A DNA stretch of 35,365 bases from NCBI GenBank assembly GCA_052386995.1, contig JBQTJP010000109.1:1-35365 (forward strand). The letters run 5' to 3'. Made by a program: the position numbers. Within the stretch, counting starts at the first letter, position 1. Every line of letters starts with the position of its first letter. The stretch comes from Armatimonadota bacterium. Its GTDB lineage: Bacteria > Sysuimicrobiota > Sysuimicrobiia > Sysuimicrobiales > Humicultoraceae. Positions 18,001 to 21,000 of this stretch are shown here, in pieces.

Positions 18001-21000
18001 GATCCAGACTACTATTCGTCGATGATGGCCAACCTGCTCCTCGGCCAGCTCGGAATGATGGGCCGCATCGGCGAGAGCGTGCGCGAGCGGCAGGGCATGG
18101 CCTACTATGCCTTCAGCGATCTGCGCGCGGGGCTGCTCGCGGGGCCGTGGTGGGTACGCGCCGGGGTCAACCCGGCTAACATCGACCGCGCGGTCGGCGC
18201 GATCCTGAACGAAATCCGTGCGCTGCAGCATGACGGGCCGGATGCCGATGAACTGGCCGACGCGCGCCGCTTCCTGGTGGGCTCGCTGGCCGTCCGCCTC
18301 GAGACGAGCCAGGGCGTGGCTCAGATCCTGGCCGACATCGAGCTCTACGGCCTCGGCCTCGACTATCTCCAACGGTATCCTTCAATTATCGAAGGCGTTC
18401 GACGGGACGACATCGTGGCCGCGATCCGACGGTTTCCGGTCGACGGACACACGCTCGCGATCGCCCGCCCCGAACGCTCATAGATGCGCATCGCTGTTCT
18501 CGGCGGCACAGGTGACCTGGGCCTGGGTCTCGTGGTGCGGTTGTCCGCTGCCGGCCATCACGTGGTGATCGGCTCGAGGGACCCCGAGCGAGGGAAAGCG
18601 GCTGCCGCGCGCCTCGGACTCCCCGACGTCCGGGGCGCGGGAAACGCCGAGGCGGCGCGCGGGGCTGATCTTGTCGTGCTGACCATCCCGTCCGAGGGAC
18701 ACGCGGAGTTCGTCCGGGCGTTGTCCGCTCCGCTGGCAGACAAGATCGTGGTGGACGCGACCGTGTCGATGGGGCCCAAGCGCGCGTTCGTGCCGCCGGC
18801 GGCCGGGTCGGCCGCCGCTGAGACCAAGGCGTTGGTGCCCGGCGCCCGCGTCGTCGCGGCCTTTCACACACTCTCCGCGCATCTGCTATCCGACACCACG
18901 CGCCCACTCGACCAGGATGTCCTGGTGTGCGGCGATGGCGCGGCAAGACCGGCCGTGATCGATCTGGTAAGCAGCATCGGGGCGCGCGGAGTCGATGCCG
19001 GCGGGCTCGGCGCGGCCGCGACGCTGGAGGTCCTGGCGATCCTTCTCATCGATCTCAACATCAGGTATCGCTGGCGCGACCTCGGGATCCGCATCGCTCA
19101 TCTGCCGGCCGATGCGCGGCCGCGATGAAAGCGGTGCAGGCATGGGCGCCCGAACCGTTCCCTGAGATCCTCCCGGGCGACGACCTGGTGGGTGCGGTCG
19201 CGGAGGCCCTAAGAAGCACCGGGCTCAGTCCCCAGCCCAAAGACATCGTGGTGCTGGCGCACAAGGTGGTGTCCAAATCTGAAGGGCACGTGGTCGATCT
19301 GCGAGACGTGGCGCCGAGCCCCGCGGCGCTCCGGCTGGCCGATGAGGTCGGGAAGGACCCTCGCCTGGTGGAGGTTATCCTTCGAGAGTCGAAGGCGATC
19401 CGCCGGGTGCGCCCGGGACTGATTATCGCCGAGCACCGCCTCGGATTCATCTGCGCGAACGCGGGGGTGGACCACTCGAACGTCGGCCTGGGGGATGATG
19501 TAGTGGCGCTGCTCCCGAAAGATCCCGATGCGTCCGCGGCGCGAATTCGCGCCGGCCTGCGGCGGGCGTTCGGGATCGAGGTGGCGGTCATCGTCAACGA
19601 CAGCCACGGCCGTCCGTTCAGGCAGGGGACGACCGGCGCCGCGATCGGCGCGGCGGGGCTGCGGGTGCTGCGTTCGTACGTGGGGGAGGAAGACCGGTAC
19701 GGCTACGTGCTGCGGGTGTCGGTCGAGGCGGTCGCGGACGAGTGCGCGGCGCTCGCGAATCTCCTGCAGGGCCAGGCCGCCGAGGGCACGCCGCTCGTCT
19801 TGATCCGGGGGCTCGACCACCCCGGAGCCGAGCGGGCCGCCGACCTGGTGCGCCCCGAAGAGGACGATCTGTTCCGATAGAGCACAACCGCTGCAACGAG
19901 GAGGGCCTGGTGAAGATCGCATCGGTCAAGACGCATACGCTCGCGGGGTCGCTGGACAAGCCGCTGTTTTTTGGCGGCGGTCCGTTCGGCACGTTCTATG
20001 CCTCCGTCGTCGAAATCCGCACGGATGACGGCCACGTCGGACTCGGCGAGTGCATCGCGCGCCGCGCCCCCGAGGTGACCTCGATGATCGTCGACGCGAT
20101 GTTGGCTCCCGTGGTCATCGGCCGCGACCCGCGCGACATCGAAGGCCTGTGGGATGATATGTTCACGCAGCTGCGGCGCTGGGGTCACTCGCGCGGGTTC
20201 GTGCTGGAGGCCATCAGCGGCGTCGACGTCGCCCTGCACGATCTGCTGGCGCGGGCCGCGGGGCTGCCCCTGTACAAGTTTCTGGGTGGATATGGCCGTG
20301 AGCGGGTGAAGTGCTACGCCTCGTCCGTGTACATCGCGGGCATCAAAGAGATGACGGAAGAGGCCGCCGGCCAGATCGCGCTGGGGCATACCGCGATCAA
20401 GGTCAAGATCGGCCGGCCGGCCTCCATGGGCGGTCTCCGCGCCGACGTCGAGTCCGTGCGGGCGATCCGGGCGGCCGTGGGGCCGCAGGTGGAGATCATG
20501 CTCGATGTCAACGGCGCATATGACGCGGCTACGGCGATCCGTGTCGCGCGTCGGCTCGAGCCGCTGGACATCGCCTGGCTGGAGGAGCCGGTGTATCCCG
20601 ATGACGTCTCTGGCTATGAGCTGATCCGCAAGGGCGCCGCCATTCCGCTTGCGGCCGGGGAGGCCGAGTTCGGCGTGTTCGGGTTTCGCGACTTGATCGA
20701 GCGCAGAGCCGTCGACGTCCTGCAGCCCGATATCGCGCGCGTGGGCGGATTCACCGCGGCGCGCCGGGTGGCCGCGCTGGCGCACGCGTACAATCTGGCC
20801 TACGCTCCGCACACCGGATTTTCGGGCGGGATCGCGCATCTGGCGTCGCTGCACCTGGCTGCCAGCGTTCCGAACTTCATGACGTACGAGTACTTCTACG
20901 CGCCGAACGCGCTGCGCGATCTCTTCACCGCGCCGTTTCCGCAGCCCAAAGACGGCACGGTACCGTTGCCCACCGGGCCGGGCCTGGGCCTCGACCTGGA

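What a model noticed while it worked through the whole genome (the two positions that open the first line are those of the whole stretch)
18484..19880. F420 user without F420 synthesis: npdG-cofE kept, cofG/H/C/D lost
The genome keeps an npdG-cofE operon and six proteins of curated F420-dependent families but has no Fo synthase, CofC or CofD. One family of the phylum has the full pathway; the others lost the core and kept the glutamyl ligase, so they look like F420 scavengers that mature and recharge an imported cofactor.
Evidence so far: NCBIfam over cut: npdG, cofE, three LLM and three PPOX F420 families. In the same 26 genomes: cofE 26, cofG 8 (all f4), cofD 11 (8 f4, 3 others), none of the two in G000 or 8 other f1 genomes; cofD 3 of 19 in the family; CofC 0 of 5. 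Only three radical-SAM genes here, all assigned.
(Added by a program. Inside this text positions count along the whole contig: contig position 1 is position 1 of the stretch shown here. "Call 12" and the like, gene names such as g00115 and contig names such as C1 are that model's own, and its searches are not shown. The text may have been shortened before it was handed on; [...] marks where a part breaks off. The agent that wrote the report below was given it as the finding of a first reader that could run no searches.)

Follow-up and report, generated by a model that had tools for sequence, protein, structure and literature searches.

The report
F420-scavenging bacteria keep only finishing enzymes
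Most members of this uncultured bacterial phylum keep the enzymes that finish and recharge the redox cofactor F420 but lack the genes to build it, so they probably take it from neighbours like a vitamin; relatives carry a candidate importer, though this genome does not.

Summary
Confirmed and extended. npdG (18484-19128) and cofE (19125-19880) pass curated cut-offs. G000 has six F420-family oxidoreductases but no cofG/H/C/D, and one contig-internal site that holds the cofD cassette in relatives is empty. Of 54 high-quality Sysuimicrobiota genomes, 14 have cofG+cofD, 4 cofC/D/E without cofG, and 36 cofE only. CofE is vertical, keeps its F420-contact residues, and nearly always comes with Fno or an FGD-family enzyme, never both. 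FolC is present, so folate is unlikely. Best reading (0.72): F420 scavengers. New lead: a RibU-paralog ECF S component sits inside cofD operons, never follows an FMN riboswitch (0 of 37; true RibU 31 of 31), and persists in cofE-only genomes of two families, but not in G000, whose importer is unknown. The scan earlier noted an ECF beside cofD in an archaeon. cofE-only scavenging was proposed for Actinobacteria (recalled); uptake is unshown. In passing, and possibly more important: an FMN-riboswitch variant precedes pdxST and two B6-transporter-like genes, a candidate first PLP riboswitch.

The parts
15929..17224 (+). M16 zinc-peptidase, catalytic-type subunit (HxxEH visible in the translation); first gene of the run
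   Evidence: the M16 pair cluster occurs in 65 of 101 cofE loci; probably a synteny neighbour
17221..18483 (+). M16 peptidase partner subunit, abutting npdG
18484..19128 (+). npdG / Fno, NADPH-dependent F420 reductase (recharges F420H2)
   Evidence: TIGR01915 185.4/149.8; 5N2I 1.3e-36, 1JAX/1JAY 5.5e-30
19125..19880 (+). cofE, F420-0:gamma-glutamyl ligase (adds or extends the glutamate tail)
   Evidence: TIGR01916 270.1/180.65; folate-type TIGR04132 only 79.3/350; 7ULD 1.7e-46 (32); F420-contact residues kept
19910..21037 (+). mandelate racemase/enolase-family dehydratase, co-oriented; no F420 link shown
   Evidence: no family over cut-off; its cluster is in 36 of 101 cofE loci
21034..22383 (+). 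449-aa fusion, P-loop kinase-like plus nucleoside 2-deoxyribosyltransferase-like; follows cofE in family f1; not a CofD substitute
   Evidence: weak Pfam hits, Atlas, homolog search; also beside cofE in G002, which has cofD (25, 17)

Best explanation
G000 and most Sysuimicrobiota are F420 auxotrophs that scavenge the cofactor. Shown (genomic): the Fo synthase and the ECF-S/fbiE/cofD/cofC cassette are absent, while a vertically inherited npdG-cofE unit and F420-family LLM/PPOX enzymes are kept. Inferred: (1) F420-0 or short-tailed F420 released by producers is imported, since free Fo is useless without CofC/D; (2) CofE adds or extends the gamma-glutamate tail with GTP, raising enzyme affinity and trapping the cofactor; (3) Fno reduces it with NADPH; (4) LLM/PPOX enzymes use F420H2. 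In families f3 and f5 the likely importer is a RibU-paralog ECF S component; in G000 and most of f1 the importer is unidentified.
For: Absence is phylum-wide, not a bin gap: 36 of 54 high-quality genomes are cofE-only, including G001 (4 contigs, 97%) and G080 (100%). G000 has a 33-bp gap between dtd and an NTP-transferase gene, where G092 and G034 hold ECF-S-fbiE-cofD-cofC. 28 of 29 phylum CofDs group together and sort by family, consistent with ancestral presence and repeated loss. All 32 cofE-only CofEs sampled keep the equivalents of D109, N112, D150, G153, R154 and R234 (G153-C155 and R234 contacts from PMC10861534). Within-family dN/dS is 0.06-0.28. Fno and the FGD-family TIGR03557 enzyme never co-occur (0 of 94), one of them is present in 52 of 54 high-quality genomes, and in the loci read they occupy the same slot before cofE. 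G093 has npdG-cofE-fbiE-cofD in one run; G080 has npdG-cofE-LLM. TIGR03617 is over cut-off in 30 of 36 high-quality cofE-only genomes. FO is reported in a producer's supernatant (PMC11104420 passage).
Against: No importer in G000: F420-0 ABC binding protein best 28.8/392 bits; the ECF-S paralog is missing from G000 and from 18 of 19 high-quality cofE-only f1 genomes. F420 dependence of the LLM/PPOX families rests on family labels and PDB neighbours, not on assays. FO secretion is documented, but I found no report of extracellular F420-0/F420-n or of its uptake. The CofD phylum group has support 94/92 only. Genomes are related, so counts are not independent.
Confidence: 0.72

Rival explanations
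1. The enzymes work without F420 (FMN or another flavin), and CofE is kept for an unknown substrate.
For: No importer found in f1. NCBIfam holds an FMN-reverted LLM family (TIGR03885, seen).
Against: No FMN-type LLM family over cut-off; the top family is F420-type for all 10 G000 LLMs scanned. All 11 PDB hits for the TIGR03617 protein but one (labelled only 'luciferase family') are named F420 or Mer enzymes. The same orthologs and residues occur in full producers.
Confidence: 0.11
2. G000 makes F420 by an unknown, non-homologous route.
For: It has ribH, so the riboflavin pathway that supplies the Fo precursor is likely present. An unassigned kinase/N-ribosyltransferase-like fusion follows cofE in f1.
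Against: Fo synthesis needs two radical-SAM domains (established); the three complete radical-SAM genes are MoaA, LipA, RlmN. The fusion is also in G002, which has cofD. At least three steps would need replacing at once.
Confidence: 0.08
3. CofE is a folylpolyglutamate synthase, like Chlamydia CT611.
For: A CofE homolog complements E. coli folC (PMC1971073 passage). No folP/folK hit in G000 (111), so folate may be salvaged too.
Against: FolC over cut-off in G000 and in 84 of 94 genomes; TIGR04132 79/350 (5); coupled to Fno or the FGD-family enzyme, not to folate genes; ring-stacking R234 equivalent kept.
Confidence: 0.05
4. The missing genes are an assembly artefact.
For: G000 is 93% complete in 326 contigs.
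Against: Empty contig-internal site (112); the same pattern in 36 of 54 high-quality genomes, and 0 of 22 f3 genomes have cofD or cofG.
Confidence: 0.03

Closest known systems
Actinobacterial putative F420-0 ABC transporter cassette (TIGR03868/03869/03873)
   Same: Same idea: CofE and F420 enzymes without synthesis genes, importing F420-0. Family names for TIGR03868 and TIGR03873 seen; the cofE-only rationale and TIGR03869 are recalled (the Selengut and Haft 2010 paper was not held).
   Different: G000 lacks that transporter (28.8/392 bits). Here the pattern covers most of a phylum, has three tiers, and the candidate importer is an ECF S component.
PEP-type F420 pathway of Chloroflexota (CofG/H, CofC/D, stand-alone FbiE, CofE)
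   Same: Closest outgroup CofE proteins; producers in the phylum carry this gene set; review PMC8498797.
   Different: G000 keeps only CofE and Fno.
ECF-RibU riboflavin importers (T. maritima 5KC0/5KBW, S. aureus 3P5N)
   Same: Only PDB hits of the cofD-linked S component (1.3e-16).
   Different: Separate clade (97 SH-aLRT); no FMN riboswitch; N78 to D and M115 to R changes; coexists with true RibU in 17 genomes.
Chlamydial FolC2 (CT611)
   Same: A CofE homolog in a genome without other cof genes.
   Different: Chlamydiae lack folC and cluster the gene with folate genes; here FolC is present and the neighbours are F420 enzymes.

Membership tests
CofE F420-0:gamma-glutamyl ligase (TIGR01916) | Score over curated cut-off | tested here: met
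   270.1 vs 180.65; the narrower NF009809 is under its cut-off (252.4 vs 274)
CofE F420-0:gamma-glutamyl ligase (TIGR01916) | Metal/GTP and F420 ring-pocket residues | tested here: met
   D116, N119, D159, S160, G162, R163, R243 match Af D109, N112, D150, T151, G153, R154, R234. Af F92 and E208 are L/V and Q in producers too. Metal-ligand roles recalled; ring contacts.
CofE F420-0:gamma-glutamyl ligase (TIGR01916) | Glutamylates F420-0 in vitro | not testable with these tools
   needs an assay
Fno / NpdG (TIGR01915) | Score over cut-off; closest solved structures are F420:NADP oxidoreductases | tested here: met
   185.4 vs 149.8 (5); 5N2I and 1JAX/1JAY rank first
De novo F420 producer | CofG+CofH (or FbiC), CofC, CofD | tested here: not met
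Fo salvager | CofC and CofD present without Fo synthase | tested here: not met
   absent in G000; cofD without cofG in 10 of 94 relatives
Actinobacterial F420-0 ABC cassette | TIGR03868 binding protein over cut-off | tested here: not met
   best 28.8 bits, 44.9 on the full ORF (43), cut-off 392.4; tested in G000 only
Folate-type CofE (FolC2, TIGR04132) | Over cut-off, in a genome lacking folC | tested here: not met
   79.3/350 (5); FolC 347.4/162.65 (74)
RibU riboflavin importer (for the cofD-linked S component of relatives) | FMN riboswitch upstream; conserved pocket Asn | tested here: not met
   0 of 37 copies have an FMN hit upstream vs 31 of 31 full-length true RibU (47 read against 54); Asn in 13 of 13 RibU, Asp in 25 of 29 (101)
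RibU riboflavin importer (for the cofD-linked S component of relatives) | Ligand actually bound | not testable with these tools
   needs a binding assay

The most novel reading that the evidence does not exclude
F420 is a shared microbial vitamin. Most of a widespread soil, groundwater and hot-spring phylum lives on deazaflavin made by others, in two grades (Fo salvage and F420-0/F420-n salvage), and a RibU-derived ECF S component with a remodelled pocket is a deazaflavin importer that accepts tailed F420 as well as Fo, since it is kept in genomes that cannot use Fo. The f1 lineage, G000 included, uses a further, still unknown uptake system.
Probability: 0.4. Interest if true: 0.85.

Novelty: new variant of a known kind. 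Interest (0 to 1): 0.68.

Why it matters
F420 is treated as a cofactor that cells either make or lack; the review passages read do not discuss uptake (0 hits for 'uptake' or 'scaveng'). A phylum in which two-thirds of good genomes are CofE-only means that counts based on synthesis genes miss many F420 users, gives a possible missing growth factor for an uncultured phylum, and supplies a small, soluble-ligand-testable importer candidate that would also help feed F420 to engineered hosts. The side finding, a candidate PLP riboswitch, addresses a gap named in PMC10043782 (PLP lacks a validated riboswitch class).

Tried and rejected
PF01933 hit as CofD: it is YvcK. Weak CofC hits in G000 (27 bits at most) and relatives: far under cut-off, read as other nucleotidyltransferases. 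G000 nitroreductases as FbiE: 29-31% identity against 57-66% among cofD-linked copies. FDOR-A (PF04075): none, but the control genomes were silent too. F420-0 ABC binding protein: none. BMP-family ABC in the window (10316-14955) as importer: best PDB match is an atrazine-binding protein (6PI5), and a close ortholog lies in only one other fetched locus. 449-aa fusion as CofD substitute: present in a cofD carrier. Second FMN-like RNA of G000 as a deazaflavin sensor: its genes are B6 genes. One search picked CofEs by motif and dropped 23 of 49 loci, so conservation was redone by BLAST; dN/dS still rests on those 26. RNA runs: no RNA holder listed, no evidence either way. One search missed riboswitches before two RibU-like genes (L307, L315), so the riboswitch contrast rests, which scored only 30 candidates per genome. 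Two key papers were not held. No supplements were read; supplementary genome tables of F420 reviews could already list such partial pathways.

Full report
Observation. The window is G000:C109 of a 3.47-Mb bin, 93.2% complete, 2.6% contaminated. Titles of related records (CSP1-3, Ca. Sysuimicrobium, Ca. Fervidifonticultor) place it in Sysuimicrobiota. npdG (18484-19128) and cofE (19125-19880) overlap by ATGA and pass curated cut-offs. They lie in a run M16-M16-npdG-cofE-enolase-family-449 aa. The genome has no CofC, CofD, CofG or CofH by family search, by profiles trained on the phylum's own proteins, or by tblastn. Three of 10 LLM and three of three PPOX proteins pass F420-family cut-offs. Radical-SAM genes are MoaA, LipA, RlmN and one Rv2578c-like fragment.

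The absence is real. Over all 94 genomes of the phylum: cofE 90, npdG 69, cofD 31, cofC 27 over cut-off, cofG 22. Combined: 21 have cofG and cofD, 10 cofD without cofG, 59 cofE only, 4 incomplete or other; among the 54 high-quality genomes 14, 4 and 36. cofH was tested only in G000, G001, G080 and G083 (none) and read beside cofG in four producer loci. These counts include unpublished G017 and G025, both cofE-only; no claim depends on them. In G000, dtd and an NTP-transferase gene converge across 33 bp inside contig C281; G092 (f6) and G034 (f2) carry ECF-S-fbiE-cofD-cofC in that interval. A second site (coaBC / DEAD helicase, 185 bp) matches the cofD location of G024, though there it is split over two contigs.

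Direction of change. CofE of 49 phylum genomes is one side of the tree against 18 outgroup proteins, with f3, f4 and f5 each grouped (FastTree). Of 29 phylum CofDs, 28 group together (94/92) and sort by family; G002's sits among Chloroflexota on a long branch. Ancestral presence with repeated loss, and one probable re-acquisition, is the simplest reading; I did not run a one-clade test.

CofE is still an F420 enzyme by every indirect test. All 32 cofE-only proteins sampled keep the metal/GTP residues and the G153-R154 and R234 equivalents that contact the ring in A. fulgidus CofE (PMC10861534, passages). Within-family dN/dS is 0.06-0.28 on 26 of 49 sequences. An FGD-family LLM (TIGR03557) occurs in 18 of 23 f4 genomes and nowhere else; in the loci read it fills npdG's slot before cofE. 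The two never co-occur (0 of 94) and one is present in 52 of 54 good genomes. So cofE is paired with an F420-reducing enzyme whichever one is used. FolC is in 84 of 94 genomes, removing the reason for a Chlamydia-type folate role (PMC1971073, passages).

Importer. Reading cofD clusters revealed an ECF S component inside fbiE-cofD-cofC of four genomes that lack cofG; its only PDB hits are RibU. The clade is in 36 of 94 genomes. Of the 30 best loci, 4 are in cofD clusters, 1 directly precedes a second npdG, 8 abut a PPOX F420-family gene, and 17 show no clear F420 neighbour within 1.5 kb; three further named loci lie beside a folP-like gene (motif recognised from memory). A weaker paralog is the true RibU: 31 of 31 full-length copies follow an FMN riboswitch hit, against 0 of 37 for the cofD-linked clade (one search read); 17 genomes carry both, and 24 of 36 carriers have ribH. 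The clade differs at likely pocket positions, N78 to D and M115 to R; an Arg could meet the anionic 8-hydroxyl of the deazaflavin or merely pair with D78 (inference). It persists in 10 of 11 (f3) and 5 of 6 (f5) good cofE-only genomes, fragments included, which cannot use Fo, so a tailed form is the likelier cargo. A Symbiobacteriaceae genome has LLM-S-cofC-cofD-cofE with an S component of another lineage and no CofH over cut-off. Against: it is in 9 of 21 producers and in only 1 of 19 good cofE-only f1 genomes; G000 lacks it, though it has an EcfT with two adjacent ABC ATPases. I put the deazaflavin-importer reading near 0.5; G000's own importer stays open. An earlier scan note (e1-2661697) reports an ECF module beside cofD in an archaeon; it is an unchecked AI note, found after my own observation.

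Mechanism. Import of F420-0 or short F420, tail extension by CofE, reduction by Fno with NADPH, use by LLM/PPOX enzymes. Gene content is shown; all four chemical steps are inferred from family biochemistry (PMC8498797, section 9 and passages).

Novelty. cofE-only F420-0 import has been proposed for a few Actinobacteria (family names; rationale recalled). Searches found no paper on F420 uptake or auxotrophy, and the phylum paper PMC11604079 has 0 occurrences of F420 (search listing); the library lacks most subscription papers and I read no supplements. Verdict: a new variant of a proposed but unproven kind; interest 0.68.

Side finding. The riboswitch search showed a second FMN-like RNA in G000 (C85:12167-12303, minus, 71.6 bits). 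Sixteen variant copies share three changes against 13 canonical ones, with compensatory changes in 10 of 38 predicted pairs. An exact 21-nt pattern hits 32 GTDB stretches; the first downstream match is PdxS in 6, a PF07155 S component in 14, an AIRS-like gene in 1, a binding protein in 9, and 2 end at contig edges. The G000 binding protein's best PDB match is the PLP-binding P5PA (5.7e-15); PF07155 and PF13531 are the families of the only characterised B6 transporters (PMC9997740, passage). Published FMN variants lose the phosphate-contact guanosines, and that paper has no 'pdx' or 'vitamin B6' hit (PMC6298564, passages); by motif mapping this variant keeps them (inference). PLP is listed as lacking a riboswitch (PMC10043782, passage); searches and scan look-ups showed no such report. 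It deserves its own follow-up.

Noticed in passing
G000:C85:12167-12303 (-) = L351:8168-8304; also L352-L370, L386-L417: Candidate pyridoxal-phosphate (vitamin B6) riboswitch: a conserved FMN-aptamer variant before pdxS-pdxT (6 of 32), a PdxU/HmpT-family ECF S gene (14) or a P5PA-like binding protein. PLP has no validated riboswitch per PMC10043782. My odds that it senses a B6 vitamer: about 0.8; interest if true about 0.9.
   Followed up: partly
L361:1467-2483 and orthologs (family f3): An AIRS/PurM-fold gene (PF00586, PF02769) follows the B6-type S component under that RNA; by analogy with ThiL it could be an unrecognised B6-vitamer kinase (inference).
   Followed up: no
L216:3579-4130, L217, L218, L219, L243, L322: RibU-paralog ECF S component in cofD operons and beside npdG or PPOX genes: candidate deazaflavin importer.
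   Followed up: yes
window 21034-22383 (+): Kinase-like plus nucleoside-deoxyribosyltransferase-like fusion; homologs at 68-92% identity, then a drop to 36%; function unknown.
   Followed up: partly
L107:6196-7188 and f4 cofE loci: FGD-family F420 dehydrogenase replaces npdG before cofE in family f4; substrate unknown (TIGR03554 under cut-off).
   Followed up: partly
L231:1305-2339, L227, L232: A D-glutamate cyclase-like gene (PF14336) converges on cofC in several f4 genomes.
   Followed up: no
L214 (G002:C11): cofH-cofG, folP-folB-folK-like genes, cofD-cofC and an LLM in one block with a Chloroflexota-like CofD: probable re-acquisition of F420 synthesis.
   Followed up: partly
G000 genome: No folP or folK hit by tblastn although FolC is present: folate may also be salvaged; could be a bin gap.
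   Followed up: no
family f3: ribH in only 2 of 22 genomes: riboflavin auxotrophs relying on RibU.
   Followed up: partly
window 8452-14955 (-): BMP-family ABC transporter with isochorismatase- and cyclase-like genes; best PDB match 6PI5; likely N-heterocycle uptake and breakdown.
   Followed up: partly
window 30960-32003 (+); 24892-27369 (+): IS110 transposase (237.4/140) and a cyclase-like/TPR ATPase; ordinary.
   Followed up: no
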